A program made the translations under genes and the position numbers. A DNA stretch of 64,000 nt from Thermoanaerobaculia bacterium (GTDB lineage: Bacteria > Acidobacteriota > Thermoanaerobaculia > Multivoradales > JAHEKO01): the NCBI GenBank assembly GCA_041574955.1, contig JBFGNS010000003.1, forward strand, positions 2,640-66,639, given 5' to 3'. Of this stretch, positions 1 to 15,723 are shown piece by piece. The notes under the pieces were generated by a model. That model was given only the letters and a program-made list of their open reading frames with translations, was not told the origin of the DNA and made no database searches. Numbering within the stretch: position 1 is the first letter of the stretch; each line of letters opens with the position of its first letter.

Positions 1-1
1 T

Positions 2-1358: not shown

Positions 1359-2477
1359 TTGGAACCGACAGCGACCCCCGACGACAACTCCGAAGCCAGC
1401 CGGCAGGCGGTCGCGCCGCTGATGGACGCTGCCGGCGCCGAGCTGCAGGCGGCGCTCGGAGACCTGGCGGAGCGGTTCGGCGGCGCCGCCGATCCCGAGC
1501 GCACCGCCGAGGAGCGGCTCGAGCTGTTCGAGGACCTGACCGACTCGGAGGTCGGTGACAACTCGCTCGGCCGCGCCCGCAACCTGGAGCGCGAAAGCGG
1601 CCTCAGGCAGCTGTGGATCCAGTTCGAGGGCGGCAACCCCACCGGCACCCAGAAGGACCGTATCGCCTTCGCCCAGGCGCACGACGCGCTGCGCCGCGGC
1701 TTCGACACGCTGACGGTGGCGAGCTGCGGCAACTACGGCGCCGCGCTGGCGCTGGCCGCCTCGCTCGCCGGCCTGCGCTGCCTGGTCTACATCCCGTCGA
1801 GCTTCCACACCCGCCGGGTGGAGGAGATCGAGCGTCTCGGCGCCGAGGTGGCGCGCTCGCCCGGCGACTACGAGTCGGCGGTGGCGGCGTCGCGCGAGCA
1901 TGCCGAGCGCGACGAGCTGTACGACGCCAACCCGGGCAGCGCCAACACCGCGCTGCAGCTCGCCGCCTACGGTGAGATCGCCAACGAGATCTACGACGAG
2001 CTGCGCGACGCGCCGGCGATCGTGGCTGTGCCGGTGTCGAACGGCACCACCCTGGCGGGCATCTACAAGGGGTTCGTGCGGCTCCACCGGCGCGGCAAGA
2101 CGTCGCGCGTGCCGCGCATGGTGGCCGGCTCGTCGTCGGGCAAGAACCCGATCGTGCGCTCGTTCGCCCGCAAGCTCGAGCACTGCGAGGACCTGGACCC
2201 CGCCAAGGTGCGAGAGACGGCGGTCAACGAGCCGCTGATCAACTGGCATTCGTACGACGGCGAGGCGGCGCTCGACGCCATCCGCGACTCGGGCGGCTGG
2301 GCGGCCGACGCCAGCGACCGCGTGATGCTGCGCCAGGCGCGCAACCTGTCGGCGAAGGAGGGGCTCAACGCGCTGCCGGCCTCGTGCGCCGGGCTCGCGG
2401 TGCTGCTCGCCGGACACGCCGCCGAGCCGCTGCCAGCCGACCGCTATGTCGTTGTTCTGACCGGGAGACGCCGATGA
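1359..2477 (+). CDS. PLP-dependent enzyme, threonine-synthase/PALP fold
   Basis: Has the lysine motif GGNPTGTQKDR (compare NPTGSFKDR of ThrC), plus ASCGNYGAALA and PVSNGTT. The start is uncertain: TTG at 1359 follows a GAGGAG Shine-Dalgarno sequence; alternatives are GTG 1272 and ATG 1422. Confidence 0.8.
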   Translation: MEPTATPDDNSEASRQAVAPLMDAAGAELQAALGDLAERFGGAADPERTAEERLELFEDLTDSEVGDNSLGRARNLERESGLRQLWIQFEGGNPTGTQKDRIAFAQAHDALRRGFDTLTVASCGNYGAALALAASLAGLRCLVYIPSSFHTRRVEEIERLGAEVARSPGDYESAVAASREHAERDELYDANPGSANTALQLAAYGEIANEIYDELRDAPAIVAVPVSNGTTLAGIYKGFVRLHRRGKTSRVPRMVAGSSSGKNPIVRSFARKLEHCEDLDPAKVRETAVNEPLINWHSYDGEAALDAIRDSGGWAADASDRVMLRQARNLSAKEGLNALPASCAGLAVLLAGHAAEPLPADRYVVVLTGRRR

Positions 2478-3574
2478 ACGAGCCGCTCGACGGCACTGCC
2501 GTCGTCTACTGCGAGAGCGCCTTCGGCACCACCAACGGCAAGACCGCCCACGGCCTGGTGCGCCGCACCGCGCGCTACCGGGTGGGCTCGGTGATCGACT
2601 CGCGGCACGCCGGCAAGGACGCCGGCGAGCTGCTCGACGGCCGGCCGAACGGCATCCCGCTGGTCGGCGACCTCGCAGCCGCGCTGTCCGCCGCCGCCGC
2701 CTCGGGTCCGCCGGCGAGCCATTTCGTGGTCGGGCTGGCGCCCGACGGCGGGCGGCTGCCGGCGCCGGCTCGTGCCGCGGTGCGCGCCGCCATCGAGGCC
2801 GGTCTCCATGTCGACAGCGGCCTGCACGACTTCCTGTCCGAGGACCCGGTGCTGGCGCCGCTGGCGGCGGAGAGGGGCGTGCGCATCCGCGACATCCGAA
2901 AGCCGCCGCCGCGCGACGAGCTGCACTTCTTCAGCGGCAAGATCGAGCAGGTCACGAGCTTCAAGGTGGCGGTGCTGGGCACCGACTCGGCGGTCGGCAA
3001 GCGCACCACCGCCTGGCTGCTGGTGGAGGCGCTCGCGGCCGCCGGCACCGGCGCCGAGATGGTCGGCACCGGCCAGACCGCCTGGCTGCAGGGCGCCCGC
3101 TTCGCCACCGTCAGCGACTCGCTGGTGAGCGACTTCGTCTCCGGCGAGATGGAGCACGTCGTCTGGTCGGCTTGGCACGAGCGACGGCCGGAGGTGATCG
3201 TGATCGAGGGCCAGGGCAGCCTGATGAACCCGGCCTACCCCGGCGGCTTCGAGATCCTGGCCGGTGGTCGGCCGGACGCGATCATCGTGCAGCACGCGCC
3301 GGCGCGCAAGGAGTACGACGGCTTCCCGGGCTATCCGCTCCACCCGCTCGATCACCAGATCCGCGCCCTCGAGCTCGTCTCCGGCAAGCCGGTGGTGGCG
3401 GTGACGGTGAACCACGAGAACCTGACGCCCGAGGAGACCGCCGAGGCCTGCCGGACGATCACCGCCGAGACCGGTCTGCCGGCGTTCGACGTGCTGCTCG
3501 AGGGGGCCGCCGGGCTGGCGGAGGTCATCCGCCTGCACGCCGCGGCCGCCGCGACCGAGCGGGGCGATGGCTGA
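2474..3574 (+). CDS. DUF1611 / DgcN-like protein (D-glutamate N-acetyltransferase family)
   Basis: The N-terminus MNEPLDGTAVVYCESAFGTTNGKTAHGL and the P-loop-like segment VAVLGTDSAVGKRTT are typical of DUF1611. The ATG at 2474 overlaps the upstream TGA (ATGA). Confidence 0.75.
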   Translation: MNEPLDGTAVVYCESAFGTTNGKTAHGLVRRTARYRVGSVIDSRHAGKDAGELLDGRPNGIPLVGDLAAALSAAAASGPPASHFVVGLAPDGGRLPAPARAAVRAAIEAGLHVDSGLHDFLSEDPVLAPLAAERGVRIRDIRKPPPRDELHFFSGKIEQVTSFKVAVLGTDSAVGKRTTAWLLVEALAAAGTGAEMVGTGQTAWLQGARFATVSDSLVSDFVSGEMEHVVWSAWHERRPEVIVIEGQGSLMNPAYPGGFEILAGGRPDAIIVQHAPARKEYDGFPGYPLHPLDHQIRALELVSGKPVVAVTVNHENLTPEETAEACRTITAETGLPAFDVLLEGAAGLAEVIRLHAAAAATERGDG

Positions 3575-5906
3575 GGCCGGCGGCGCCGGGGCGCTCGCCC
3601 GGCTGCTGGTCATCGACCGGCTGGAGGTCGGCCCGGTCGAGCTCGAGCCGCGCCGGCTGACCGCCCGTTACCGTGTCGAGCGTGGCGGCGAGAGCGCCGA
3701 GACCGAGCTGGGCTACCGCTTCGAGCAGCACGTCTTCGACCCCGACGATCCGGCGGCGCGCAACCTGGCCGCGGTGGCGGCGTCGCAGGTGGCGCTCAAC
3801 TACGGCCTGTTCTGCCGCCGCATCGTGCTGCGCGGGCCGCTCGATGCGCTCGACCGCCGGTTCCTGGTCGAGATGGCCGCCAACACGGCGCGCGAGATCT
3901 ACGTCAAGAAGCTGCTCGAGCCCAACCCGTTCCTGGTCGGCGACGCCGTCGGGCTGCCGGTGGAGCGGCGCCGCAGCTACCTGCAGGCCGAGATCGAGTT
4001 CCCCGACGCGGTGGCGACGGTGGCGCCCGGCGGCTGGTCCACCGGCTCGACCGTGCCGGCGGTGCTGGCCAGCGGCGGCAAGGACAGCCTGCTGAGCTAC
4101 GGCCTGCTCGACGAGCTGGGCCTGGCGCCGCACTCGGTGTTCGTCAACGAGTCGGGCCGCCACTGGTACACCGCGCGCAACGGCTACCGCCACCTGCGCG
4201 ACAGCGTGCCCGAGCGCACGGCGCGCGTCTGGACCAGCTCGGACCGGGTGTTCAACTGGATGCTGCGGCAGCTGCCGTTCATCCGGCCCGACTTCGCCGA
4301 CGTGCGCGCCGACGAGTACCCGATCCGGCTGTGGACGGTGGCGGTGTTCCTGTTCGGCGCGCTGCCGGTGCTGCGCGCGCGCGGTCTCGGCCGGCTGGTG
4401 ATCGGCGACGAGTTCGACACCAGCGTGCGGCTGCGCCACGAGGGTGTCCCGCACTACGACGGGCTGTTCGATCAGAGCCGCCGGTTCGACGAGCGGCTGA
4501 CCCGCTACTTCGTCGACAAGGGCTGGGGGGTGCGCCAGTTCTCGCTGCTGCGGCCGCTCTCGGAGCTGCTCATCCAGCGGCTGCTGGGCGAGCGCTACCC
4601 CGAGCTCCACCGCCACCAGGTCTCCTGCCACGCGACCCATATCGAGGACGAGCGCACGCGGCCTTGCGGCAGGTGCGAGAAGTGCCGCCGCATCGTCGGC
4701 ATGCACCTGGCGCTGGGTCTCGACGCCACCGCCTGCGGCTACAGCGAGGCCCAGGTCGAGCGCTGCCTGGCCGAGCTGGCGCGTCGCGGCGTCCACCAGG
4801 AGGCCGCCGGCGCCCGCCAGCTGGCCTGGATGCTGCGCGGCCGTGAGCTGCTGCCGCCCGACGCCCCCGGGCTGGCGGCGGCGCGCGAGCACCCCGAGAT
4901 CCTGCGCCTGCGCTTCCACCCCGAGGCGTCGCCGCCGCAGGCCGTACCGTCGGACCTGCGGTCCGGCGTCTGGCGGCTGATGCTCGAGCACGCCGACGGC
5001 GCGGTCGAGCGGCAGGCGCGGCAGTGGGTTCCGTTCGAGCCGCTGGCGCCCGAGGTGCTGGCGCTGCCGTACCCGTTCGAGCCGGCGCCGGCCGAGCGGC
5101 CGCCGCCGCCGCCCAGCGGCGGGCCGTCGGGCTACCTGCTGGGCGAGCTCACCTGGCCGGTCGCCGAGGCGCGGCTGGCCGAGACCGACACCGCGCTGCT
5201 GCCGGTGGGCGCCATCGAGCAGCACGGCCTGCATCTGCCGCTCGACACCGACTCCTGGGACGCCGACCACGTCTGCCGGAGGGTGGCCGAGAACTGCAGC
5301 GATCCCAGGCCGCTGGTGCTGCCGTTGATCCCCTACGGCGTCTCGTACCACCACCTCGACTTCCCGGGCACGCTCTCGGTCAGCCCCGAGACGCTGTCGC
5401 GGCTGGTCTACGAGATCGGGATCAGCGCCGCCCGCCACGGCATCCGCAAGCTGGTGATCGTCAACGGCCACGGCGGCAACGCCCCGACCCTCCAGTTCGC
5501 CGCCCAGATCATCAACCGCGACGCCCACATCTTCACCTGCGTCGACTCGGGCGAGACATCCGACGCCGACATCGAGCGCATCGTGGAGACCGAGGGCGAC
5601 GTGCACGCCGGCGAGATCGAGACCTCGACCGCTCTGGCCAGCCGGCCGGAGCTGGTGGACATGAGCCGCGCGCGGCCCGAGGTGCAGCGGTTCTCGAGCC
5701 AGTACCTCAACTTCGGCTCCAAGCGATCGGTGGAGTGGTACGCGCACACCTCGCGCATCTCCGAGACCGGCGTGATGGGCGATCCCACCAAGGCCAGCCG
5801 CGAAAAGGGCGAGCGGATCTGGCGGGTGATGATCGACCGGCTGACCGAGTTCGTCGAGTCGCTCAAGCGGATGAGCCTCGACGAGATCCACGAGCAGCGG
5901 TTGTGA
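3567..5906 (+). CDS. Fusion protein: unknown N-terminal domain + PP-loop ATP-pyrophosphatase-like domain + creatininase-family amidohydrolase
   Basis: PP-loop motif LASGGKDSLLSYG and cysteine cluster SCH...CGRCEKCRR, then a Pro-rich linker (ERPPPPPSGGPSG). The creatininase-family part shows LLPVGAIEQHGLHLPLDTD, IVNGHGGN and HAGEIETS. Overlaps the upstream gene by 8 nt. Confidence 0.75.
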   Translation: MAEAGGAGALARLLVIDRLEVGPVELEPRRLTARYRVERGGESAETELGYRFEQHVFDPDDPAARNLAAVAASQVALNYGLFCRRIVLRGPLDALDRRFLVEMAANTAREIYVKKLLEPNPFLVGDAVGLPVERRRSYLQAEIEFPDAVATVAPGGWSTGSTVPAVLASGGKDSLLSYGLLDELGLAPHSVFVNESGRHWYTARNGYRHLRDSVPERTARVWTSSDRVFNWMLRQLPFIRPDFADVRADEYPIRLWTVAVFLFGALPVLRARGLGRLVIGDEFDTSVRLRHEGVPHYDGLFDQSRRFDERLTRYFVDKGWGVRQFSLLRPLSELLIQRLLGERYPELHRHQVSCHATHIEDERTRPCGRCEKCRRIVGMHLALGLDATACGYSEAQVERCLAELARRGVHQEAAGARQLAWMLRGRELLPPDAPGLAAAREHPEILRLRFHPEASPPQAVPSDLRSGVWRLMLEHADGAVERQARQWVPFEPLAPEVLALPYPFEPAPAERPPPPPSGGPSGYLLGELTWPVAEARLAETDTALLPVGAIEQHGLHLPLDTDSWDADHVCRRVAENCSDPRPLVLPLIPYGVSYHHLDFPGTLSVSPETLSRLVYEIGISAARHGIRKLVIVNGHGGNAPTLQFAAQIINRDAHIFTCVDSGETSDADIERIVETEGDVHAGEIETSTALASRPELVDMSRARPEVQRFSSQYLNFGSKRSVEWYAHTSRISETGVMGDPTKASREKGERIWRVMIDRLTEFVESLKRMSLDEIHEQRL

Positions 5907-5949
5907 GGCGGCCGGCGGCGGGCGACACCGCCGGCGGCGCCGGGTCGCC

Positions 5950-7014
5950 ATGAAGATCGTCCGGCTCGAGGCGTGGAGCGTGCGGCTCGGGCTGCGCGAG
6001 CCGTACGCCATCGCCTACGACCGGATCGAGTCGGTGGACAACGTCTTCGTGCGGCTGGTCACCGACAGCGGCCCGCCGGGCTACGGCTGCGCCGCACCCG
6101 ATCCGGCGGTCACCGGAGAGAGCGCGGCGGCGGTGCTGGCGGCAGTCGAGAGCGCCGGCAGCGAGCTGCGCGGCGCCGACCCGCTGCGCCGCATGCGGCT
6201 GCTCGAGCGGCTGCGCGAGCCGCTGGCCGATCGCCCCGGCGCGCTGTCGGCCATCGACATGGCGCTCCACGACCTGCTCGGCAAGGCCAGCGGCCTGCCG
6301 TTGTGGCGGCTGCTGGGCGGCTACCGCGAGTCGATCGCCACCAGCGTCACCATCGGCATCCTGCCGCTCGACGAGACGCTCGAGCGCGCCCGCAGGCATG
6401 TGGGCGAGGGGTTTCGCAGCCTCAAGCTGAAGGGCGGGCTCGACGTCGAGCTGGACGTGGAGCGGGTGCGGCGCACGCGCGAGACGGTGGGCCAGAAGGT
6501 CGAGCTCCGATTCGACGCCAACCAGGGCTACAGCTACGACGACACCATGCGGTTCGTCGAGGGGGTGCGGGAGGCGCGGCTCGAGCTCCTTGAGCAGCCC
6601 ACCGCGGCCGGCGAGGCGGATCTGCTGGGTCGCGTCACCGCCGCCGTCGAGCTGCCGGTGATGGCCGACGAGAGCCTGCTGACCCTGCGCGACGCCTTCC
6701 GGCTGGCGGGCGACGAGCTGGCCGATATGGTCAACGTCAAGCTGGTCAAGGTGGGCGGTCTGGCCGAGGCGCTGCGGATCACCGCGGTGGCGCGCGCGGC
6801 GCGGCTCGAGGTGATGGTCGGCTCGATGGACGAGTCGGCGCTCGGCATCGCCGCCGGCCTCGCCCTCGCGCTGGCCCGACCGGGCGTCGCCTACGCCGAC
6901 CTCGACGGGCACCTGGAGCTCGTCGACGACCCGGCGGCGGGGGCGGTCGTGCTGCGCGGCGGCGAGCTCCATCCCAGCGACGCGCCGGGGCTCGGGGTGG
7001 AGCTGCCGGACTGA
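5950..7014 (+). CDS. Enolase-superfamily dipeptide / N-acyl-amino-acid epimerase (L-Ala-D/L-Glu epimerase / DgcA-like)
   Basis: Shows SLKLKGG, RFDANQGY, LLEQP, VMADES, NVKLVKVGG and MVGSMDES, which match the metal-ligand and catalytic Lys pattern of the MLE subgroup. Confidence 0.85.
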   Translation: MKIVRLEAWSVRLGLREPYAIAYDRIESVDNVFVRLVTDSGPPGYGCAAPDPAVTGESAAAVLAAVESAGSELRGADPLRRMRLLERLREPLADRPGALSAIDMALHDLLGKASGLPLWRLLGGYRESIATSVTIGILPLDETLERARRHVGEGFRSLKLKGGLDVELDVERVRRTRETVGQKVELRFDANQGYSYDDTMRFVEGVREARLELLEQPTAAGEADLLGRVTAAVELPVMADESLLTLRDAFRLAGDELADMVNVKLVKVGGLAEALRITAVARAARLEVMVGSMDESALGIAAGLALALARPGVAYADLDGHLELVDDPAAGAVVLRGGELHPSDAPGLGVELPD

Positions 7015-9114: not shown

Positions 9115-11525
9115 GCGTACGCCGCCGGCCGGCGGCCGGGTCGTGGCGCGTGCTGGTGGTCGCCGCGGCGCTGGCGGCGGCGCCGGCGGCCGCCGAGCCG
9201 GCGGCGGTGCGCATCGGGGTGGTGGTGGACGGTCCCTGGGAGGGCAACCAGGCAGTCCTGGACCTGACGGTGGCGGAGGTGACGGCGCTCACCGCCGGCG
9301 AGTTCGAGGTCGGCTTCCCGGCCGCCGCCCACCTCATCGGCGACTGGACCTTCGACACGGCGCGCGCCAACCTGGAGCGGCTGCTGGCCGACCCCGGCGT
9401 CGACCTGGTGATCACCTGGGGGCTGCTGGCGTCGCACGCGGTGTGCTGCGTGGGCGAGCTGGACAAGCCGGTGGTGGCGCCGGTGGTGGCCGATCCGTTC
9501 TTGCAGGGGCTGCCGCTCGCCGGCGGTGCCAGCGGCGTGCCCAACCTGAGCTACGTCGCGCTCGAGAACGCCACCGCCCGCGAGCTGGCGCTGTTCCAGC
9601 GCATCGTGCCGTTCTCCAAGATCACCTTCCTGAGCACCCGTGAGTTCCTGGAGGCGGTGCCCGACGTGCCGCTGCGCAGCCTCGAGCTGGCGGCGCGCGC
9701 CGGTCTCGAGGCCGATTTCGTCGGCCTCGGCAGCGACCCCGAGGAGGCGCTGGCCGCCATCCCGGGCTCGACCGAGGCGGTCTACGTCTGGCCGCAGTTC
9801 CAGATGGGGGAGGAGGGCTTCCGGCGGCTGGTTGACGGACTCAACGCCCGCAAGCTGCCGAGCTTCTCGGCGCTCGGCGGCCGCTACGTCGAGGCCGGCA
9901 TGCTGGCCACCGCCCAGTCCGACGACTTCTTCCAGCGGCTCAGCCGGCGGGTCGCACTCAACGTGCAGCGCATCCTGCTGGGCGAGCCGCCGGCGTCCAT
10001 ACCGGTCGACTTCCGCTACCGCGAGCGGCTGGCGATCAACATGGCAACCGCCCGCGCCATCGGCGTCTCGCCGGGCTGGGACGTGCTGGTCGAGGCGCGG
10101 CTGCTGCACGCCGAGGAGTCGGGTCTGCCGGCGCTGACGCTCGAGCGCGCCGTCGAGCAGGCGCTGGCCGACAACCCCGAGCTGGCCGCGGCGCGACGTG
10201 AGCTGGCCGCCGGAGAGCAGCAGGTGGCGGCGGCCCGCGCCGCCTTGCGGCCGCGGCTCGAGCTGTCGGGCTCGGCGCTGGCGATCGACGACGACCGCGC
10301 CGCCGCCAGCTTCGGCTCGCAGCCCGAGCGCACCACGCTGGGGTCGCTGGCCCTCGGCCAGCTGGTGTTCTCGGAGCCGGCGCGGGCCAACCTGGAGATC
10401 GAGCGCCGGCTGCAGGCCGGCCGCGAGGCCGACTTCGAGAGCCGCCGGCTGGACCTGGTACGGGAGACGGCGGTGGTCTACCTCAACCTGCTGCGCGCCA
10501 AGACCCTGGTCGAGGTGCAACGCAACAACCTCGAGCTGACGCGCTCCAACCTGGAGCTGGCCGAGCTGCGGCGGGCGATCGGCGCCGCCAACCCGGCCGA
10601 GGTCTACCGCTGGCAGAGCCGCATCGCCACCGATCGTAAGGCGCTGATCGAGGCTCAGGCCAGCCGCCGCATAGCCGAGATCGCGCTCAACCGCCTGCTC
10701 GGCCGGGATCTGGAGGAGCAGTTCCTGACCGAGGAGGTGGACCTCGAGGATCCCGACCTGATCACGGGCCAGGAGCGGTTCCGCGGCTACACCACCACGC
10801 CGCGTCGCTTCCGCCTGCTGCGCGACTTCATGGTCGAGGAAGGGCTGACCGCGGCGCCCGAGCTGCGCCGGCTGGACCGCGCCATCGCCGCCCAGGAACG
10901 CGCGCGGGCCGCCGCGCGGCGCGCCTTCTGGCTGCCGGCGATCGGTCTGCGTGCCGGGGTCGACCAGCGGCTCAGCGCGGCCGGCGCCGGCAGCGCCGGT
11001 GGCCCTGTGCTGCCGGGCCTGGCGTTGCCGCGGGCCGACGACACCAGCTGGAGCCTGGGTCTGTCCGCTTCGCTGCCGCTGTTCGCCGGCGGCGAGCGGC
11101 GGGCCGAGGTCGAGCGCGCCGAGGCCGAGCTCGACCGGCTGGGTCTGGCGTTCGACGCCACCGCCGACCGCATCGAGCAGCGCATCCGCTCCGGCATCGA
11201 GGTGGCGCGCGCCTCGTTCGCCGGCATCGAGCTGTCGCGTGAGGCCTCGGCGGCGGCCCGCAGCAGCCTCGAGCTGGTGGCCGACGCCTACGCCCGCGGA
11301 GCGGTGTCGATCCTCGACCTGCTCGACGTGCAGAACGCGGCGCTCAACGCCGAGCTGCTGGCGGCCAACGCGGTCTACGACTTCTTCGTCGATCTGATGG
11401 AGGTGCAGCGCGCCGCCAGCCGCTTCGACTTCTTCCTCGACATCGGGGCGCGCGACCTGTGGTACCAGCGCCTCGAGCTGTACTTCGATCGGGCCGGCCA
11501 CAGCCCGGGGGAGTCCACCAGATGA
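9111..11525 (+). CDS. Outer-membrane efflux protein (TolC family) with N-terminal ABC_sub_bind-like periplasmic-binding domain
   Basis: GTG at 9111 follows AGGAGG (9101-9106) and overlaps the asnB TGA. Signal peptide RVLVVAAALAAAPAAA. The N-terminal domain of about 320 aa ends in RLAINMATARAIGVSPGWDVLVEA. The C-terminal half has two OEP repeats (LTLERAVEQALADNPEL..., SILDLLDVQNAL...). Confidence 0.8.
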   Translation: MSVRRRPAAGSWRVLVVAAALAAAPAAAEPAAVRIGVVVDGPWEGNQAVLDLTVAEVTALTAGEFEVGFPAAAHLIGDWTFDTARANLERLLADPGVDLVITWGLLASHAVCCVGELDKPVVAPVVADPFLQGLPLAGGASGVPNLSYVALENATARELALFQRIVPFSKITFLSTREFLEAVPDVPLRSLELAARAGLEADFVGLGSDPEEALAAIPGSTEAVYVWPQFQMGEEGFRRLVDGLNARKLPSFSALGGRYVEAGMLATAQSDDFFQRLSRRVALNVQRILLGEPPASIPVDFRYRERLAINMATARAIGVSPGWDVLVEARLLHAEESGLPALTLERAVEQALADNPELAAARRELAAGEQQVAAARAALRPRLELSGSALAIDDDRAAASFGSQPERTTLGSLALGQLVFSEPARANLEIERRLQAGREADFESRRLDLVRETAVVYLNLLRAKTLVEVQRNNLELTRSNLELAELRRAIGAANPAEVYRWQSRIATDRKALIEAQASRRIAEIALNRLLGRDLEEQFLTEEVDLEDPDLITGQERFRGYTTTPRRFRLLRDFMVEEGLTAAPELRRLDRAIAAQERARAAARRAFWLPAIGLRAGVDQRLSAAGAGSAGGPVLPGLALPRADDTSWSLGLSASLPLFAGGERRAEVERAEAELDRLGLAFDATADRIEQRIRSGIEVARASFAGIELSREASAAARSSLELVADAYARGAVSILDLLDVQNAALNAELLAANAVYDFFVDLMEVQRAASRFDFFLDIGARDLWYQRLELYFDRAGHSPGESTR

Positions 11526-12625
11526 GAGCTACCGCCGCCACCGCCGTCCTGCCGTTCGTCTGGCTGCTCGCCGGCTGTGCCGGCGAGCCGGAGCCGCCGG
11601 CGCCCGAGATCCGGCCGGTGCGCACGCACCGCGTCGCGCCGAGCGAGGGCGCCGAGCTGCGCACCCTGGCCGGCGTCGCCCGCGCCGGCGTCGAGTCGCG
11701 TCTGAGCTTCCGCGTCGGCGGCACCGTGCAGCAGCTGCGGGCGGCGCTCGGCGACCGTGTGCGCGCCGGTCACGTGCTGGCGGTGCTCGATCCGGCCGAC
11801 TACGAGCTGCAGGTCGAGGAGGCCGAAGCGGCGCTGGCGCAGAGCCAGGCCGGCCTGCGGCGTGCCGAGGCCGACTACGACCGTGTGCGCGCGCTGTACG
11901 AGAACAACAACGCCTCGAAGAGCGAGCTGGACGCCGCCCGCGCCGCGGCCGAGTCGGCCGAGGCGGTGGTGGAGAGCGGCGCCAAGCGGCTCGAGCTGGC
12001 CCGCCGTCAGGTCGACTACACGGTGCTCAGGGCGCCCAGCGACGGGGCGATCGCGATGGTCACCGTCGAGGTCAACGAGAACGTGCGCAGCGGCCAGGAG
12101 GTGGTGCTGCTGGTCATCGGCAGCCACCCCGAGGTGCAGGTGGCGGTGCCCGAGGTGCTGATTCCGCGGGTCTACGCCGGCCAGCCGGTGACGGTCGAGC
12201 TGGCCGCGCTTGGTGGCCGCCGCCTCGACGGCGTGGTGAGCGAGGTGGGGGTCGCGATGACCGGCACCGCGAGCACCTTCACCGTTACCGTGCGGCTGGT
12301 GGACGCCCACCCTGCGATCCGCTCCGGCATGGCGGCCGACGTCACCTTCCGGCTGGTCGACGAGAACGCCAGCGAGCGGCTGTTGGTGCCGCCGGTGGCG
12401 GTGGGCGAGGACCGTCATGGGCGGTACGTGTTCGTGGTGCGCCAGCTCGACGACGGCACCGCGCGCGTCGAGCGCCGCGGCGTCACCGTCGCCGCCAGCG
12501 GCGGCGTCGGCGGCATCGAGATCGTCGACGGCCTGGAAGCCGGCGAGCTGATCGTCACCGCCGGCCTGCGCCGCATGTCCGAGGGGATGCGGGTGCGGCC
12601 GGTCGATGCCGGAGAGCCGATGTGA
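11522..12625 (+). CDS. RND efflux periplasmic adaptor (MFP/HlyD family) lipoprotein
   Basis: Lipobox LLAGC; coiled-coil hairpin region (ELQVEEAEAALAQSQAGLRRAEADYDR); beta-barrel region. ATGA overlap with the upstream gene. Confidence 0.9.
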   Translation: MRATAATAVLPFVWLLAGCAGEPEPPAPEIRPVRTHRVAPSEGAELRTLAGVARAGVESRLSFRVGGTVQQLRAALGDRVRAGHVLAVLDPADYELQVEEAEAALAQSQAGLRRAEADYDRVRALYENNNASKSELDAARAAAESAEAVVESGAKRLELARRQVDYTVLRAPSDGAIAMVTVEVNENVRSGQEVVLLVIGSHPEVQVAVPEVLIPRVYAGQPVTVELAALGGRRLDGVVSEVGVAMTGTASTFTVTVRLVDAHPAIRSGMAADVTFRLVDENASERLLVPPVAVGEDRHGRYVFVVRQLDDGTARVERRGVTVAASGGVGGIEIVDGLEAGELIVTAGLRRMSEGMRVRPVDAGEPM

Positions 12626-15600
12626 GCCTGACGCGCTCGGCCATCGACAACGACCGGGTCACCCTGGTGCTGCTGGCAGTGCTGCTGGTGGCCGGCATCC
12701 AGGCCTACCTGGGCATGCCGCAGGCCGAGGATCCGGGTTTCACCATCCGCACCGCGATGGTGCTGACCTACTTTCCCGGCGCCAGCCCGCAGCGCGTCGA
12801 ACAGCTGGTCACCGACAAGCTGGAGAAGGCGATCCAGGAGCTGCCGCAGCTCGAGTCGGTGGTCAGTCAGTCGAAGACCGGCGTGTCGATCGTGCTGGTC
12901 AACATCCTGGAGAGCTACCGCGAGATGCGGCCGATCTGGGACGATCTGCGCCGCAAGGTCGACCGCGCGGCCGGCGAGCTGCCCGACGGCGTCATCGGGC
13001 CGACGGTCAACGACGAGTTCGGCGACGTCTTCGGCACGGTGGTCACCGTCGCCGGCGACGGCTACTCCTACGCCGACCTCAAGCGCATCGCCGACGAGGT
13101 GCGCGACGAGCTGCTGCTGATCGGGGAGGTGGCCAAGGTCGACATCTTCGGCGCCCAGCAGGAACGGGTGTTCGTCGAGTACTCGAACGCCCGGCTGGCG
13201 GAGCTCGGCCTGGCGCCGCTGCAGCTGCGCAACATCCTGGAGAGCCGCAACATCATCAACCCCGGCGGCGATATCCGCACCGACGAGGAGGTGATCGTCT
13301 TCGAGCCCACCGGCAGCTTCGAGTCGGTGGAGGACCTCAAGCGCACGGTCATCACCCTGCCGGGGCGCAGCGAGCTGCTCTACCTGCAGGACGTGGCGAC
13401 GATCTACCGCGGCTACGTCGACCCGCCGACCACCCGCATGCGCGCCAGCGGCGAGCCGGCGCTGGCGCTGGCGGTGTCGCTCAGGGAGGGCGGCAACATC
13501 CTCGACCTCGGCTCGGCGGTCGCGAGCACGGTCGAGCAGCTCCGCACCATCTACCCGGTGGGAGTCGACTTCGACTTCGTGGCGTTCCAGGCGCAGGCGG
13601 TCGACCGCAAGGTGTCCGACTTCCTCGGCAATCTGGTGCAGGCGGTGGCCATCGTGCTGGCGGTGATGCTGCTGAGCCTCGGCCCGCGCACCGGGCTGGT
13701 GGTGGCCAGCCTGATCCCGATGGCGATGGTCGCCAGCTTCATCTTCATGGCGCTGTTCGACGTCGGCATCAACCAGATGTCGCTGGCGGCGCTGATCATC
13801 GCGCTCGGCTTGCTGGTGGACAACGCCATCGTGATGTCGGAGTCGATCCTGGTCCAGATGGGGGAGGGCAGGCCGGCGGTCGAGGCGGCGGTGGATTCGG
13901 CCGCCGAGCTGCGCATGCCGCTGCTGACCTCGTCGCTGACCACCGCCGCCGCCTTCCTGCCGATCGCCCTGGCGCGCTCGACCACCGGCGAGTACACCCA
14001 GACGCTTTTCCAGGTGGTGACCATCACCCTGCTGTGCTCGTGGGTGCTGTCGCTGACCATGGTTCCGCTGCTGTGCGTGCTGTTTCTCAGACCGCGCCGG
14101 CGGGCGCCGGCGGCCGCCTTCGACACGCCGTTCTACCAGCGCTACCGCCGGCTCCTGGTGGCCGTGCTGCGCCGTCCGTGGCTCAGCCTGGCGCTGGTGG
14201 CGCTGGTGTTCTTCGGCGCCCTGCAGCTGATGCGGCTGGTGCCCAAGATCTTCTTCCCGCCCAACGACCGGCCGACGCTGCTGGCCGAGCTGCGGCTGCC
14301 GACCGGCTCGCCGCTGTCGGCGACCGAGGCGCTGGTGGTGGAGGTGGAGGGTTTCCTGCGCGAGGAGCTGCTGCTGGCGCCGGCCGACCTGGCGGCCGGT
14401 GACGAGGGCGTCGTCAACTGGGCCAGCTTCATCGGCGAGGGCGCGCCGCGCTTCTTTCTCTCGTACACGCCGGAGCCGGCGAGCCCGGAGTTCGCCGTGC
14501 TGGTGATCAACGCCACGTCGCGCGAGTTCGTCGACGTCGCGGTCGGCCGGCTGCGGGAGTTCTGCCGCCGCTTCCCCGGCCTCAAGGCGCAGATCGACCC
14601 GCTGCCGCTGGGGCCGCCGGCGGCCAACCCGGTGGAGGTGCGCATCTCGGGCCGCGACTCCGAGGAGCTGTTCGGGCTGGTGGCGGTGGTGCAGGAGCGG
14701 CTGCGCGCCATCCCGGGCACGCGCTCGATCGACGACGACTGGGGGGCGCGGTCGAAGAAGGTGGTGGTGCGCATCGACGAGGCGCGCGCCCGCCGCGCCG
14801 GGGTCAGCAACCAGGATGTGGCGCTGTCGCTGCAGACGGTGTTCTCGGGCTTCAACACCACCGAGTACCGCGAGGACGACAAGGTCATCCCGGTGGTGCT
14901 GCGCTCCGAGCAGGCGGGCGCGATCGACCCGGCGTCGTTCGCCAGCGTCAACGTCTTCTCGCAGGCCACCGGCCGGTCGGTGCCGCTGGCCCAGGTGGCG
15001 GAGATCGAGCTCGCCTGGCAGCCCGCCAACATTCGGCGGCGCAACCGGCTGCGCACGGTGACCGTGACCTCGGACGTGGAGCCCGGCTACACCGCCAACG
15101 AGGTGATCCAGCAGCTCGAGCCCTGGTTGGCCGAGTCGAGCCAGGGTTGGCCGCGCGGCACAGGCTGGGAGATCGGCGGCGAGCAGGAGGCTTCGAACAA
15201 GGCCAACCGCTCGATCGTGGCGCAGCTGCCGGTCGCCGGGCTGATCATCGTGCTGCTGCTGGTAGCGCAGTTCAACTCCATCCGCCGGCCGCTGATCATC
15301 CTGATCGCCATCCCGCTGGGGATCATCGGCGTGTCCGTCGGGCTGGTGGTGATGCGCTCCTACATCGGCTTCATGACCCTGCTTGGCATCATCTCGCTGT
15401 CGGGAATCGTCATCAACAACGCCATCGTGCTGCTCGACCGCATCCGGCTGCAGGAGCAGGTGCACGGCTCGAGCCCGCAGCAGGCGGTGATCGAGGCGGC
15501 GCAGCGCCGGCTGCGGCCGATCCTGCTCACCACCTTCACCACCCTCGGAGGGCTGATACCGCTCTATATCGGTGGCGGACCGATGTACCAGCCGATGGCA

Positions 15601-15723
15601 GTGGCGATCATGTTCGGGCTGCTGTTCGGCACCACCCTGACGCTCGGCATCGTGCCGGTGCTGTACGCGGTGATGTTCCGGGTGAGCTTCCGCGACTTCG
15701 CCCCCGGCGGGGCGGCGAGCTGA
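12622..15723 (+). CDS. RND efflux permease (AcrB/HAE family)
   Basis: 1033 aa with typical AcrB-family N-terminus and transmembrane repeats (LAALIIALGLLVDNAIVMSE; GIISLSGIVINNAIVLLD). GTGA overlap with the adaptor gene. Confidence 0.95.
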   Translation: MSLTRSAIDNDRVTLVLLAVLLVAGIQAYLGMPQAEDPGFTIRTAMVLTYFPGASPQRVEQLVTDKLEKAIQELPQLESVVSQSKTGVSIVLVNILESYREMRPIWDDLRRKVDRAAGELPDGVIGPTVNDEFGDVFGTVVTVAGDGYSYADLKRIADEVRDELLLIGEVAKVDIFGAQQERVFVEYSNARLAELGLAPLQLRNILESRNIINPGGDIRTDEEVIVFEPTGSFESVEDLKRTVITLPGRSELLYLQDVATIYRGYVDPPTTRMRASGEPALALAVSLREGGNILDLGSAVASTVEQLRTIYPVGVDFDFVAFQAQAVDRKVSDFLGNLVQAVAIVLAVMLLSLGPRTGLVVASLIPMAMVASFIFMALFDVGINQMSLAALIIALGLLVDNAIVMSESILVQMGEGRPAVEAAVDSAAELRMPLLTSSLTTAAAFLPIALARSTTGEYTQTLFQVVTITLLCSWVLSLTMVPLLCVLFLRPRRRAPAAAFDTPFYQRYRRLLVAVLRRPWLSLALVALVFFGALQLMRLVPKIFFPPNDRPTLLAELRLPTGSPLSATEALVVEVEGFLREELLLAPADLAAGDEGVVNWASFIGEGAPRFFLSYTPEPASPEFAVLVINATSREFVDVAVGRLREFCRRFPGLKAQIDPLPLGPPAANPVEVRISGRDSEELFGLVAVVQERLRAIPGTRSIDDDWGARSKKVVVRIDEARARRAGVSNQDVALSLQTVFSGFNTTEYREDDKVIPVVLRSEQAGAIDPASFASVNVFSQATGRSVPLAQVAEIELAWQPANIRRRNRLRTVTVTSDVEPGYTANEVIQQLEPWLAESSQGWPRGTGWEIGGEQEASNKANRSIVAQLPVAGLIIVLLLVAQFNSIRRPLIILIAIPLGIIGVSVGLVVMRSYIGFMTLLGIISLSGIVINNAIVLLDRIRLQEQVHGSSPQQAVIEAAQRRLRPILLTTFTTLGGLIPLYIGGGPMYQPMAVAIMFGLLFGTTLTLGIVPVLYAVMFRVSFRDFAPGGAAS

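What the first reader, a model, noticed from the sequence alone, without database searches (positions are those of the whole stretch)
1359..15723. Unclassified amino-acid/peptide-tailoring gene set translationally hard-wired to an RND exporter
**Seen in the sequence.**
- Eight consecutive plus-strand genes run from 1359 to 15723.
- Stop/start overlaps occur at 2474-2477 (ATGA), 3567-3574 (8 nt), 9111-9114 (GTGA), 11522-11525 (ATGA) and 12622-12625 (GTGA).
- The AsnB-like gene is therefore directly coupled to the outer-membrane factor of a complete OMF-MFP-RND pump.

**Established family chemistry.**
- Thr-synthase-fold PLP enzymes carry out beta/gamma replacement.
- DUF1611 is the DgcN family (D-Glu N-acetyltransferase).
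- Enolase-type enzymes here epimerise dipeptides or N-acyl amino acids.
- AsnB-type enzymes adenylate and amidate a carboxylate.
- PP-loop enzymes adenylate a carbonyl.
- Creatininase-family enzymes hydrolyse lactams, amides or peptide bonds (for example MftE).

**Inference.** This is a compact pathway that makes and exports a small N-acylated or amidated metabolite containing a D-amino acid. Candidates include an NAGGN-like solute, a chelator or a signal molecule. It has no NRPS, PKS or ATP-grasp gene, so standard biosynthetic-cluster rules would probably not flag it.
Basis: partly seen in the sequence, partly recalled or inferred. Interest (0 to 1): 0.75.

Follow-up and report, generated by a model that had tools for sequence, protein, structure and literature searches.

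The report
Conserved amino-acid cassette beside unrelated pump
The eight-gene run is real, but it is three separately conserved units lying side by side: a widespread, uncharacterised four-gene amino-acid/dipeptide-processing cassette, a lone asparagine-synthase-type gene, and a self-contained efflux pump that accompanies the cassette in no other genome examined.

Summary
**Observation.** Confirmed.

**Interpretation.** Partly supported. Genes 1-4 (1359-7014) form a conserved cassette:
- a threonine-synthase-like PLP enzyme;
- a DUF1611 (DgcN-like) protein;
- a fusion of an unannotated ~520-aa QueC/MurL-like PP-loop ATPase domain with a creatininase-family hydrolase;
- a dipeptide epimerase.

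The cassette keeps this order in 43 of 55 fully assessable loci. Its signature domain occurs in at least 590 species-level genomes from more than ten phyla, and all 80 loci fetched were metagenome-assembled genomes (MAGs).

**No conserved link to the pump.**
- None of 82 other cassette loci has the AsnB-type gene or any pump gene beside it.
- In 4 of 4 relatives the pump forms its own three-gene operon with no AsnB-type gene upstream.

The "hard-wiring" to an RND exporter is therefore specific to this genome.

**Likely function (inferred).** The cassette probably carries out an ATP-dependent acylate / activate / epimerise / hydrolyse sequence on an amino acid or dipeptide. The epimerised residue probably has a cationic side chain. 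This resembles the logic of DgcN-DgcA and MurD2-MurL. The product and the direction of the pathway are unknown.

**Value.** The cassette is a useful enzyme-discovery lead. It is not an export-coupled biosynthetic cluster.

The parts
1359..2477 (+). Cassette gene 1: fold-type-II PLP enzyme, threonine-synthase-like but probably not a threonine synthase (372 aa, TTG start after GAGGAG).
   Evidence: - PF00291 E 5e-53; NCBIfam PRK06381 409 bits, above the 266 cut-off.
- Best solved relatives are threonine synthases, E 4e-26.
- The PLP lysine (TQKDR) and the carboxylate-binding xCGNxG loop are conserved.
- Positions aligned to threonine-synthase Thr88 and Arg160 are Tyr/Phe (66/5 of 72) and Gln (72/72).
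- Adjacent to the fusion gene in 52 of 55 assessable loci.
2474..3574 (+). Cassette gene 2: DUF1611 protein (Rossmann-like N domain plus P-loop C domain), a DgcN-like probable N-acyltransferase.
   Evidence: - PF17396 and PF07755.
- DgcN model 148 bits, below the 480 cut-off.
- Solved relatives 2g0t, 2obn, 7xrj.
- P-loop LGTDSAVGKRTTAW is conserved in 66 orthologues.
- Fused to the N-domain in P0123 and paired with it in an archaeal contig, L093.
- Replaced by a GNAT in L065.
3567..5126 (+). Cassette gene 3, N-terminal ~520 aa: an unannotated QueC/MurL-like PP-loop ATP pyrophosphatase domain with a Cys4 site.
   Evidence: - No Pfam match even at E <= 10.
- S169-G-G-K-x-S174 is nearly invariant. 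C354, C367 and C370 are invariant and C373 is >=90% conserved.
- AlphaFold2 model: pLDDT 92, pTM 0.91.
- Foldseek top hits are QatC, QueC (2pg3, 3bl5) and Cap9, probability 1.0, target-normalised TM 0.65-0.72 for the QueC/Cap9 core.
- The only NCBIfam sequence hit is MurL, in 6 of 20 members, best E 2e-7.
5127..5906 (+). Cassette gene 3, C-terminal domain: creatininase-family metal-dependent amidohydrolase.
   Evidence: - PF02633 246 bits over aa 527-763.
- MftE model 155 bits (cut-off 172); creatininase model 106 bits (cut-off 235).
- Motifs EQHGxHLPxDTD, NGHGGN and HAGExETS are conserved in 70 orthologues.
5950..7014 (+). Cassette gene 4: enolase-superfamily dipeptide epimerase with an acidic specificity residue.
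   Evidence: - PF02746 and PF13378.
- Best solved relatives are dipeptide epimerases 3rit (E 2e-74), 3jva and 1jpm.
- K-x-K, the metal-ligand motifs and the ADLDG (D-x-D) motif are present.
- Position 24, which is Arg in B. subtilis L-Ala-D/L-Glu epimerase, is Glu in 47 and Asp in 4 of 51.
7015..7152 (.). 138-nt intergenic gap marking the boundary between the conserved cassette and the genome-specific neighbours.
   Evidence: - Sequence.
- No Rfam match and no promoter or terminator consensus.
- Folding is no better than shuffled sequence, z +1.4.
- In other genomes the cassette ends here and unrelated genes follow.
7153..9114 (+). Separate unit: glutamine-dependent asparagine-synthase-type amidotransferase (N-terminal Cys2 nucleophile).
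   Evidence: - PF13537/PF13522 plus PF00733.
- TIGR01536 411 bits, above the 267 cut-off. NAGGN and PEP-CTERM amidotransferase models are below their cut-offs.
- Absent next to the cassette in 81 of 82 loci and next to the pump in 4 of 4.
9111..11525 (+). Pump gene 1: outer-membrane factor with signal peptide, an N-terminal substrate-binding-protein-like domain (PF04392) and TolC repeats; 804 aa.
   Evidence: - PF04392 32 bits, above the 25.9 cut-off, at aa 89-329; PF02321 twice.
- 669 homologues of about 800 aa at E <= 1e-10.
- Heads its own OMF-MFP-RND operon in L089, L090 and L094. L088 has only fragmentary MFP and RND calls.
11522..12625 (+). Pump gene 2: RND periplasmic adaptor (membrane-fusion protein, lipoprotein-like N terminus).
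   Evidence: TIGR01730 221 bits, above the 94.9 cut-off; HlyD_3 and HlyD_D23.
12622..15723 (+). Pump gene 3: RND inner-membrane permease.
   Evidence: PF00873 541 bits over the full length. RND_permease_2 scores 508 bits, below its 1250 subfamily cut-off.

Best explanation
**The run 1359-15723 is three independently conserved units that happen to be packed together in this high-GC genome. Protein similarity suggests a Thermoanaerobaculia-like Acidobacteriota organism.**

**Unit A (1359-7014)** is a widespread, uncharacterised four-gene cassette. It acts inside the cell on an amino acid or dipeptide.

Shown:
- All five catalytic domains are intact.
- They are strongly conserved: 50-75% identity across phyla.
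- Gene order is fixed, with overlapping junctions.

Inferred reaction sequence:
1. The threonine-synthase-like PLP enzyme makes or converts a free alpha-amino acid. It lacks threonine-synthase phosphate ligands, so the reaction is probably not threonine synthesis.
2. The DUF1611 protein puts an acyl or aminoacyl "handle" on an amino group. DgcN does this, and GNATs replace or accompany it in variant loci.
3. The QueC/MurL-like PP-loop domain spends ATP (giving AMP + PPi) to adenylate a carboxylate. This either forms an amide bond or, as in MurL, makes the alpha-proton labile.
4. The dipeptide epimerase inverts the C-terminal residue. That residue's side chain is probably cationic.
5. The fused creatininase-type metallo-hydrolase cleaves an amide to release the product or remove the handle.

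The net result would be an ATP-driven, handle-assisted stereo-editing of an amino acid or dipeptide. The product would be a D-amino acid or a D-residue-containing dipeptide. Direction and substrate identity are not established.

**Unit B (7153-9114)** is an ordinary Gln-dependent asparagine-synthase-type gene.

**Unit C (9111-15723)** is a self-contained RND pump whose outer-membrane factor carries an extra substrate-binding-protein-like domain.

The AsnB/OMF 4-nt overlap probably does give co-translation here, but it reflects gene packing, not a conserved pathway.
For: **Composite nature**
- Of 55 fully assessable cassette loci, 43 carry PALP, DUF1611, fusion and epimerase in this order. Eight carry only PALP plus fusion.
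- 0 of 82 carry SBP-OMF, MFP or RND homologues. One of 82 has a weak AsnB hit. 34 loci have at least 8 kb downstream.
- Pump relatives at 51-65% identity stand alone in 4 of 4 loci.

**Breadth**
- At least 590 GTDB species representatives across Acidobacteriota, Gemmatimonadota, Desulfobacterota, Planctomycetota, Ignavibacteria, Calditrichia, Krumholzibacteriia, Latescibacterota, Bacteroidota and Woeseiaceae.
- 2986 clusters at 90% identity.

**Chemistry**
- *PP-loop domain:* pLDDT 92 model with QueC/QatC/Cap9 as best folds. The SGGKxS motif and the Cys4 site are invariant or nearly so. Local MurL similarity in 6 of 20 members. MurL is ATP-dependent, AMP-forming and acts on a C-terminal residue (PMC5808125). 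PP-loop enzymes AMPylate a carboxyl or keto oxygen, which is then attacked by an N or S nucleophile (PMC13376578).
- *Epimerase:* K-x-K, D-x-D and a strictly acidic residue 24. The roles of D321/D323 and R24 in the B. subtilis enzyme are described in bioRxiv 10.1101/2022.05.01.490185.
- *Acyl-handle theme:* a DUF1611-N-domain fusion. An archaeal DUF1611 plus N-domain pair. GNAT and HDAC-type deacetylase in variant loci. DUF1611 and the epimerase are largely gained and lost together.
- *Hydrolase:* motifs conserved.
Against: - No substrate, product or direction is demonstrated. Every reaction step is inferred from family chemistry.
- The eight two-gene loci keep PALP plus fusion but lack both DUF1611 and the epimerase. 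The core reaction therefore needs neither, which a strict handle-plus-enolase-epimerase scheme does not explain unless the MurL-like domain itself epimerises.
- The D-x-D motif argues for a free N-terminal ammonium, i.e. a dipeptide. That fits poorly with a simple N-acetyl handle.
- The similarity to MurL is local (about 55 residues around the Cys motif) and far below the family cut-off.
- The synteny census covers only the 80 best loci, plus a few others, of at least 590. All are MAGs with crude ORF calling.
- Co-transcription of AsnB and the pump with the cassette in this organism cannot be excluded without RNA data.
Confidence: 0.55

Rival explanations
1. All eight genes form one pathway that builds a small N-acylated or amidated D-amino-acid metabolite. 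The AsnB-type gene amidates it and the RND pump exports it.
For: - Same strand, with a 4-nt AsnB/OMF overlap and only a 138-nt gap after the epimerase.
- AsnB-type amidation would be chemically compatible with a carboxylate product.
- No terminator consensus in the gap.
Against: - 0 of 82 other cassette loci carry pump genes. One of 82 carries a weak AsnB hit.
- 4 of 4 pump relatives lack both the AsnB-type gene and the cassette.
- The AsnB-type gene fails the NAGGN and PEP-CTERM amidotransferase cut-offs.
- Where the cassette has a recurrent membrane partner, it is a DUF2179/YitT protein, not an RND pump.
Confidence: 0.06
2. The cassette is catabolic or a salvage route. It would convert D-amino acids or D-residue-containing dipeptides (from cell-wall or necromass material, or from abiotic racemisation) back to L-forms. 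The steps would be acylation, epimerisation and hydrolysis as in DgcN-DgcA. The PLP enzyme would then deaminate or convert the product.
For: - DgcN-DgcA is a D-Glu utilisation pathway (PMC10845958).
- L-Ala-D/L-Glu epimerases act in murein-peptide metabolism (PMC3605383 abstract).
- Sigma-54 activators lie within 10 kb in 13 loci. Amino-acid permeases are among the nearest neighbours in 3.
- The hosts are mostly sediment lineages.
- The patchy multi-phylum distribution suits a transferable catabolic cassette.
Against: - No consistent importer. No Opp/Dpp-type binding protein or ABC importer appears among the 25 commonest neighbour families.
- ATP-consuming adenylation and a threonine-synthase-like enzyme are more typical of biosynthesis.
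- The very high conservation and the fixed, overlapping gene order look more like a core function than a peripheral catabolic trait.
- No riboswitch or regulator is consistently attached.
Confidence: 0.25
3. The cassette makes a neutral N-acyl amino-acid amide or a cyclic amide that serves as a compatible solute. The QueC-like domain would convert a carboxylate to an amide, as QueC does. The product would be handled by adjacent DUF2179/YitT membrane proteins.
For: - QueC converts a carboxylate to an amide and then a nitrile, using ATP (PMC13376578).
- Recurrent neighbours include DUF2179/YitT membrane proteins (13 of 137 nearest ORFs). Scattered neighbours include MscS, CorA, MgtE, CaCA and Usp genes.
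- Many hosts come from marine or saline sediments.
Against: - Ion-channel neighbours occur in only 2-7 loci each.
- A fused hydrolase is hard to reconcile with accumulating an amide product.
- No osmoregulatory transporter (BCCT, OpuA-type) is associated.
- This is pure inference, with no chemical evidence.
Confidence: 0.1
4. The cassette is a QueC-like anti-phage defence or protein-modification system, analogous to QatABCD or type IV CBASS Cap9.
For: The best structural matches of the N-domain are QatC and Cap9.
Against: - No significant PADLOC match for any cassette protein. The only hit is marginal: DrmMI, E 0.005, 13 bits, for the PLP enzyme.
- The partners are small-molecule enzymes (PLP enzyme, dipeptide epimerase), not nucleases or ATPases.
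- Sequence conservation of 50-75% across phyla is unlike fast-evolving defence genes.
- Neighbourhoods are not defence islands.
Confidence: 0.02

Closest known systems
DgcN-DgcA D-glutamate pathway (DUF1611 N-acetyltransferase plus enolase-superfamily N-acetyl-D-Glu racemase, followed by a deacylase)
   Same: - The same two protein families are paired, and they are largely gained and lost together.
- The same overall logic of acylate, epimerise, hydrolyse.
- A hydrolase is present in the unit.
   Different: - Both proteins score far below the equivalog cut-offs: 148 vs 480 and 157 vs 400.
- The epimerase carries the dipeptide D-x-D motif and an acidic residue 24. It should therefore bind a free N-terminal ammonium and a cationic side chain, not N-acetyl-Glu.
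- The cassette adds a PLP enzyme and an ATP-dependent PP-loop domain, neither of which DgcN-DgcA has.
[quoted passage not shown]
   Same: - MurL is the only curated family with sequence similarity to the N-domain (6 of 20 members, best E 2e-7).
- Both would activate a carboxylate with ATP on an N-acylated amino acid (PMC5808125, PMC8788868).
   Different: - The similarity is confined to about 55 residues around the Cys motif: 24.6 bits against a cut-off of 700.
- No MurD2-type ligase is in the cassette.
- The domain is fused to a hydrolase and accompanied by a separate enolase-type epimerase.
QueC / QatC / Cap9 PP-loop enzymes
   Same: - The fold (Foldseek probability 1.0), the SGGxDS PP-loop and a C-x(n)-C-x2-C-x2-C cysteine cluster.
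- The expected chemistry: AMPylation of a carboxylate, then attack by a nitrogen nucleophile.
   Different: - About 14-17% identity, and no QueC family model matches.
- Extra N-terminal (~150 aa) and C-terminal (~120 aa) subdomains.
- No queuosine or deazaguanine genes and no defence partners nearby.
Dipeptide epimerases of the enolase superfamily (B. subtilis YkfB, E. faecalis 3JVA, M. capsulatus 3RIT)
   Same: - Full-length similarity, E 2e-74 to 6e-60.
- Catalytic K-x-K and second Lys, metal-ligand motifs, and the D-x-D ammonium-binding motif.
   Different: - Residue 24 is Glu or Asp (51 of 51) rather than the Arg that binds the Glu carboxylate in the L-Ala-D/L-Glu epimerase.
- The enzyme sits in a conserved operon with PLP, DUF1611 and PP-loop/creatininase genes.
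Bifunctional ligase/amidase enzymes such as glutathionylspermidine synthetase/amidase (from my own knowledge, not tested here)
   Same: One polypeptide combines an ATP-dependent amide-forming domain with an amide-hydrolysing domain.
   Different: Unrelated folds (ATP-grasp plus CHAP there; PP-loop plus creatininase here). The substrates here are unknown.

Membership tests
Single operon / one biosynthesis-export pathway (8 genes) | Gene set is syntenic in other genomes | tested here: not met
   Genes 1-4 are syntenic in 43 of 55 assessable loci. AsnB-type gene: 1 of 82 (weak hit). Pump: 0 of 82. Pump relatives lack both the AsnB-type gene and the cassette in 4 of 4.
Single operon / one biosynthesis-export pathway (8 genes) | Co-transcription across 7015-7152 and 9111 | not testable with these tools
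   No RNA data. Consensus scans found neither a promoter nor a terminator in the gap.
Threonine synthase | Fold-type-II PLP enzyme with a Schiff-base lysine in the xxKDR motif | tested here: met
   PF00291 E 5e-53. NPTGTQKDR aligns with threonine-synthase NPTGSFKDR.
Threonine synthase | Phosphate-binding residues for O-phosphohomoserine (Thr88 and Arg160, T. thermophilus numbering; residue roles recalled from the literature, not checked here) | tested here: not met
   The aligned positions are Tyr/Phe (66/5 of 72) and Gln (72/72).
Threonine synthase | Curated NCBIfam model score above the cut-off | tested here: met
   PRK06381 409 bits, above 266. As far as I know this model's members have no experimental validation. 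The canonical thrC model TIGR00260 scores 89, below 167.
DgcN (D-Glu N-acetyltransferase) | DUF1611 N and C domains with an intact P-loop | tested here: met
   PF17396 and PF07755. GTDSAVGKRTT is conserved.
DgcN (D-Glu N-acetyltransferase) | Equivalog-level score | tested here: not met
   NF041892 148 bits, below 480.
DgcA (N-acetyl-D-Glu racemase) | Equivalog-level score | tested here: not met
   NF042940 157 bits, below 400. A D-x-D motif typical of dipeptide epimerases is present.
Dipeptide epimerase (enolase superfamily, MLE subgroup) | K-x-K and second catalytic Lys, three metal-ligand motifs, and a D-x-D motif for the substrate alpha-ammonium | tested here: met
   LKLKGG, FDANQ, EQP, ADES, VKLVK and ADLDG. 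K159, A316 and L318, which flank these motifs, are invariant or nearly so in 51 orthologues.
L-Ala-D/L-Glu epimerase | Arg24 in the capping loop binding the Glu side-chain carboxylate | tested here: not met
   Asp in the window. Glu in 47 and Asp in 4 of 51 orthologues. NF041118 196 bits, below 500.
QueC-like PP-loop ATP pyrophosphatase | SGGxDS PP-loop motif | tested here: met
   SGGKDS at aa 169-174. S169, G170, G171, K172 and S174 are at least 90% conserved in a 20-member alignment reaching down to 24% identity.
QueC-like PP-loop ATP pyrophosphatase | QueC fold with a C-terminal Cys cluster | tested here: met
   Foldseek: QatC E 6e-6, QueC 2pg3 E 2e-4 (TMt 0.65), Cap9 (TMt 0.72). C354, C367 and C370 are invariant and C373 is at least 90% conserved.
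QueC-like PP-loop ATP pyrophosphatase | Match to a curated QueC sequence model | tested here: not met
   No Pfam family at E <= 10. No QueC model in NCBIfam output.
[quoted passage not shown] | Equivalog-level score / full-length similarity | tested here: not met
   NF041275 24.6 bits, below 700. Only aa 322-376 align.
[quoted passage not shown] | ATP-dependent, AMP-forming epimerisation of a C-terminal residue | not testable with these tools
   Needs an enzyme assay. MurL's properties are taken from PMC5808125.
Creatininase family (PF02633) | Pfam domain above the gathering score with conserved metal/catalytic motifs | tested here: met
   246 bits against 31.3. ExH...D, GHGGN and HAGExETS are conserved. 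The assignment of these motifs as ligands is recalled, not tested.
MftE / creatininase sensu stricto | Equivalog cut-offs | tested here: not met
   TIGR03964 155 bits, below 172. TIGR04448 106 bits, below 235. No mycofactocin genes nearby.
Asparagine synthase (Gln-hydrolysing) | N-terminal Cys nucleophile, GATase plus Asn_synthase domains, and curated cut-off | tested here: met
   Begins MCGLVG. PF13537 and PF00733. TIGR01536 411 bits, above 267.
NAGGN amidotransferase (AsnO type) | Equivalog cut-off | tested here: not met
   TIGR03104 357 bits, below 570. No Ngg-type GNAT/ATP-grasp gene in the run.
Tripartite RND efflux pump | OMF, MFP and RND permease encoded together | tested here: met
   PF02321, TIGR01730 (221 bits, above 94.9) and PF00873 (541 bits). 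The same trio is found in L089, L090 and L094.

The most novel reading that the evidence does not exclude
The four-gene cassette could be a previously unrecognised, ATP-driven "handle-assisted" amino-acid stereoinversion pathway, i.e. a third solution alongside MurD2-MurL and DgcN-DgcA.
- A new MurL/QueC-like adenylating domain fused to a creatininase-type hydrolase, working with a PLP enzyme, would supply or recycle a D-amino acid. That amino acid is probably cationic.
- Its uses might be in the cell wall, as an osmolyte or in damage repair.
- It would operate in hundreds of uncultured sediment species across more than ten phyla.
- It would also define a new enzyme family: a ~500-aa domain with no Pfam model.
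Probability: 0.15. Interest if true: 0.75.

Novelty: new variant of a known kind. Interest (0 to 1): 0.45.

Why it matters
**Negative result.** Overlapping stop/start codons in a compact high-GC genome are not evidence of a shared pathway. No exporter-linked cryptic biosynthetic cluster should be claimed here.

**Positive result: a well-defined target for enzyme discovery.**
- The operon has a fixed gene order and is present in at least 590 species-level genomes.
- It contains a ~520-aa domain family with no Pfam model. Fold and motifs place that domain among QueC-like PP-loop adenylating enzymes. Local sequence similarity places it next to MurL, whose mechanism and fold are themselves undescribed in the papers read here.
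- Solving its function would assign a role to thousands of "creatininase family protein" annotations.
- It would extend the DUF1611/enolase pairing beyond D-Glu catabolism.
- It might reveal how abundant uncultured sediment bacteria make or recycle D-amino acids.

Tried and rejected
1. **Riboswitch or leader upstream of the cassette.** No Rfam hit in the window 1-16000 at E <= 1, or in 20 related loci at gathering score.
2. **Promoter or terminator in the 7015-7152 gap.** None found, and folding is no better than shuffled sequence. This is uninformative for a non-model phylum.
3. **Anti-phage defence system** (prompted by the QatC/Cap9 fold match). No significant PADLOC hits.
4. **Sulfur-carrier model** (CysM/CysO- or MetM/MetO-like). 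The small ORFs directly upstream of PALP in L086 and L087 are unrelated to each other and lack a Gly-Gly C terminus. Dropped.
5. **RidA fusions of the N-domain (P0026, P0120).** The C-terminal parts begin with a signal-peptide-like stretch. They look like read-through into a neighbouring gene, so they were not used as evidence.
6. **Literature.** Searches covered DUF1611, COG3367/PF07755 and creatininase combined with PP-loop, QueC, threonine synthase or dipeptide epimerase. None found a description of this gene set. The 2012 PNAS dipeptide-epimerase paper could not be retrieved.
7. **Profile search of the N-domain against PDB sequences.** Only sub-threshold PP-loop hits, E 0.1-0.3. The fold search was needed.
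8. **DUF2179, CorA or CaCA homologues elsewhere in the 64-kb window.** None found.
9. **Conserved neighbours beyond the cassette.** Only DUF2179/YitT membrane proteins recur (13 of 137). Everything else is scattered.

Full report
**1. The observation**

The window is about 73% G+C over the region. Translating the eight proposed genes gives uninterrupted reading frames. The junctions are exactly as described:
- ATGA at 2474-2477;
- an 8-nt overlap at 3567-3574;
- a 43-nt gap before 5950;
- a 138-nt gap before 7153;
- GTGA at 9111-9114, ATGA at 11522-11525 and GTGA at 12622-12625.

The first gene starts at a TTG, 6 nt after GAGGAG. The public gene calls for the source assembly give the same eight genes and the same overlaps. 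That assembly is GCA_041608635.1, a metagenome-assembled genome (MAG).

Pfam and NCBIfam confirm the family assignments:

| Gene | Assignment |
|---|---|
| 1359-2477 | PALP |
| 2474-3574 | DUF1611_N plus DUF1611 |
| 3567-5906 | Creatininase domain at aa 527-763 of a 779-aa protein |
| 5950-7014 | MR_MLE_N/C |
| 7153-9114 | GATase plus Asn_synthase |
| 9111-11525 | OEP |
| 11522-12625 | RND adaptor |
| 12622-15723 | ACR_tran |

- The first ~520 aa of the fusion protein match no Pfam model, even at E <= 10. They do carry SGGKDS, so the PP-loop reading is correct.
- The outer-membrane factor is an 804-aa fusion. It has a signal peptide, a PF04392 substrate-binding-protein-like domain and TolC repeats.

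**2. Is it one unit?**

*The fusion protein's relatives.* A search with the N-terminal 520 aa found 2986 clusters at 90% identity. The best 120 are 56-71% identical. Nearly all are ~780-aa fusions with a creatininase domain.

*Neighbourhoods of three relatives.* In a Holophagae MAG, a Deltaproteobacteria MAG and an unassigned metagenome contig, the order is the same: PALP, DUF1611, fusion, epimerase. The DUF1611/fusion overlap of 4 nt is also kept. The genes that follow are unrelated to the AsnB-type gene or the pump.

The phyla and lineages include Acidobacteriota, Gemmatimonadota, Desulfobacterota, Planctomycetota, Ignavibacteria, Calditrichia, Krumholzibacteriia, Latescibacterota, Bacteroidota and Woeseiaceae. 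All 80 loci fetched were MAGs.

*Census.* tblastn with all window proteins against these loci gave:
- Of 55 loci with both flanks assessable, 43 have all four genes in the same order.
- 8 have only PALP plus fusion.
- 2 lack only the epimerase, and 2 are other variants.
- Pump components occur in 0 of 82 loci, although 34 loci have at least 8 kb downstream.
- An AsnB-type hit occurs once: 30% identity, about 3 kb upstream in L012.

*The converse test.* The SBP-TolC fusion has 669 homologues of about 800 aa. Four relatives on long contigs, at 51-65% identity, were examined. In three of them it heads its own OMF-MFP-RND operon. The fourth (L088) shows only fragmentary MFP and RND calls. None has an AsnB-type gene upstream or the cassette nearby.

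*Conclusion.* The eight-gene run is therefore three separately conserved units:
- the cassette, 1359-7014;
- a lone AsnB-type gene, 7153-9114;
- a three-gene pump, 9111-15723.

The AsnB/OMF overlap is real and may well couple translation in this organism, but it is not a conserved design. It is established knowledge that 4-nt ATGA/GTGA overlaps are the commonest overlap class in compact prokaryotic genomes.

**3. What the cassette proteins are**

*(a) PLP enzyme.* It is closest to threonine synthases (E 4e-26). It passes the NCBIfam PRK06381 model (409 bits against a 266 cut-off) but not the canonical thrC model.
- The Schiff-base lysine and the xCGNxG carboxylate loop are conserved.
- The positions aligned with T. 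thermophilus threonine-synthase Thr88 and Arg160 are Tyr/Phe and an invariant Gln in 72 orthologues. I recall those two residues as phosphate ligands.
- I conclude that it binds a free alpha-amino acid but is probably not a threonine synthase.

*(b) DUF1611.* It has both domains and a conserved P-loop. It scores 148 bits on the DgcN model, against a cut-off of 480.

*(c) N-domain of the fusion.*
- A 20-member alignment reaching down to 24% identity keeps S169-G-G-K-x-S174 nearly invariant. C354, C367 and C370 are invariant, and C373 is at least 90% conserved.
- The AlphaFold2 model is confident: pLDDT 92, pTM 0.91.
- Its best PDB matches are QatC, QueC (2pg3, 3bl5) and Cap9. After these come MnmA, TtuA and other PP-loop enzymes.
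- The only curated family with sequence similarity is MurL, hit by 6 of 20 members (best E 2e-7). The similarity covers about 55 residues around the Cys cluster.
- PP-loop enzymes AMPylate a carboxyl or keto oxygen, which a nitrogen or sulfur nucleophile then attacks (PMC13376578).

*(d) Creatininase domain.* It keeps the ExH...D, GHGGN and HAGExETS motifs in 70 orthologues. It misses the MftE and creatininase equivalog cut-offs.

*(e) Epimerase.*
- It is most similar to solved dipeptide epimerases: 3rit at E 2e-74, then 3jva and 1jpm.
- It has K-x-K, the metal-ligand motifs and the D-x-D motif. In the B. subtilis enzyme the D-x-D motif holds the dipeptide alpha-ammonium.
- Residue 24 is the Arg that binds the Glu carboxylate in that enzyme. 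Here it is Glu in 47 and Asp in 4 of 51 orthologues.
- I infer a dipeptide substrate whose epimerised C-terminal residue is cationic.

**4. Variants that constrain the mechanism**

- Eight Desulfobacterales and Calditrichia-type loci have only PALP plus fusion. In most of them a YitT/DUF2179 membrane protein follows directly.
- DUF1611 and the epimerase are largely present or absent together.
- P0123 fuses DUF1611 to the N-domain.
- An archaeal contig pairs DUF1611 with a stand-alone N-domain and has no PALP.
- Distant bacterial variants read PALP, DUF1611, N-domain, GNAT. One of them has an HDAC-type deacetylase nearby.
- In L065 a GNAT sits where PALP and DUF1611 normally are.

N-acyltransferases and amidohydrolases thus recur around the N-domain. 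This fits an "acyl handle" theme and matches DgcN's reported activity.

A Pfam census of 137 nearest-neighbour ORFs found only DUF2179-containing membrane proteins as recurrent partners (13 of 137). Sigma-54 activators, kinases, CorA/MgtE, amino-acid permeases and RimK-associated genes are scattered.

**5. Most likely mechanism (inferred, about 0.3-0.35 for the specific scheme)**

This would be an intracellular, ATP-driven stereo-editing of an amino acid or dipeptide:
1. The PLP enzyme supplies or converts the amino acid.
2. DUF1611 (or a GNAT) attaches an acyl or aminoacyl handle.
3. The QueC/MurL-like domain adenylates a carboxylate. This either forms an amide or, as proposed for MurL, labilises the alpha-proton.
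4. The enolase epimerase inverts the C-terminal cationic residue.
5. The fused metallo-hydrolase removes the handle or releases the product.

The two-gene variants show that the PLP enzyme plus the fusion protein can act without DUF1611 and the epimerase. This is the main weakness of the detailed scheme.

The direction of the pathway cannot be decided:
- *For salvage:* the precedents (DgcN-DgcA, L-Ala-D/L-Glu epimerases) and the sediment hosts.
- *For biosynthesis or a housekeeping role:* the ATP cost, the lack of a consistent importer and the high conservation.

The composite (three-unit) reading itself I hold at about 0.9.

**6. Comparison with known systems and novelty**

The cassette shares its DUF1611/enolase pair and its logic with DgcN-DgcA. 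It shares ATP-dependent carboxylate activation with MurL and QueC. It shares its epimerase scaffold with the dipeptide epimerases. However, it fails the equivalog tests for DgcN, DgcA, MurL, MftE, creatininase and L-Ala-D/L-Glu epimerase.

Full-text searches found no description of this gene set. I therefore rate it a new variant of a known kind. The building blocks and the logic are known. The conserved combination is undescribed, and so is the PP-loop/creatininase fusion with its unmodelled domain.

The headline claim, a tailoring pathway hard-wired to an RND exporter, is not supported.

**7. Verdict**

- Observation: confirmed.
- Interpretation: partly supported.
- Interest: 0.45. The export-coupling that made the finding attractive is an accident of gene packing. 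The cassette is a solid but not extraordinary function-discovery target.

Noticed in passing
window 9111-11525: The outer-membrane factor is an 804-aa fusion: signal peptide, a PF04392 (ABC_sub_bind) periplasmic-binding-protein-like domain at aa 89-329, then TolC repeats. The architecture is conserved: 669 homologues of about 800 aa, mostly Acidobacteriota/Thermoanaerobaculia. In the loci examined an MFP and an RND permease always follow. A ligand-binding domain on a TolC-type channel is unusual, and its role is unknown.
   Followed up: partly
L028, L061, L062 (all contigs of MAG JASFFJ01, Desulfobacterales): One MAG carries three separate copies of the two-gene variant (PALP plus fusion, followed by YitT/DUF2179). 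This could be paralogy or strain heterogeneity in the bin.
   Followed up: no
L005 12486-12851: A 23S-rRNA-intervening-sequence protein gene (PF05635) is inserted between the fusion gene and the epimerase gene. This is the only interruption of the cassette seen.
   Followed up: no
L003 3727-7489; L023 6897-8286; L061 190-1594: RimK-type glutamate ligase genes lie just upstream of the cassette in three loci. In L023 and L061 the partner is PF05618 'Zn_protease'. In L003 the RimK gene is accompanied by MATCAP and an N-formylglutamate amidohydrolase. In L004 poly-gamma-glutamate genes (CapB/CapC-like) are divergent neighbours. This is a weak, unexplained link to glutamate or C-terminal peptide chemistry.
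   Followed up: partly
L093 5313-7841 (archaeal contig: Rpb4, L21e, Pus10, PolB neighbours): An archaeon encodes a DUF1611 gene directly followed by a stand-alone N-domain homologue (30% identity). There is no PALP, creatininase or epimerase, and an EamA transporter gene converges on the pair. This suggests that DUF1611 plus PP-loop domain is the oldest pairing.
   Followed up: partly
P0026, P0120 (homologues of window 3567-5906): Two homologues are annotated with a C-terminal RidA (PF01042) domain in place of creatininase. The junction contains a signal-peptide-like stretch, so these are probably gene-call read-throughs rather than real fusions.
   Followed up: partly
window 32-1255 and 15794-20670: The flanks are unrelated to the finding. 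Upstream is a nucleotidyl-transferase/glycosyltransferase-like ORF. Downstream are an SppA-type S49 peptidase, a PDZ protein and a subtilase.
   Followed up: partly
L016 3580-4611: On the crude ORF calls, a Na+/Ca2+-exchanger-like membrane gene on the opposite strand appears to sit between the PALP and DUF1611 genes of an otherwise complete cassette. CorA, MgtE, MscS and CaCA genes flank the cassette in a handful of other loci. It is unclear whether this reflects chance or a link to ion or osmotic homeostasis.
   Followed up: partly
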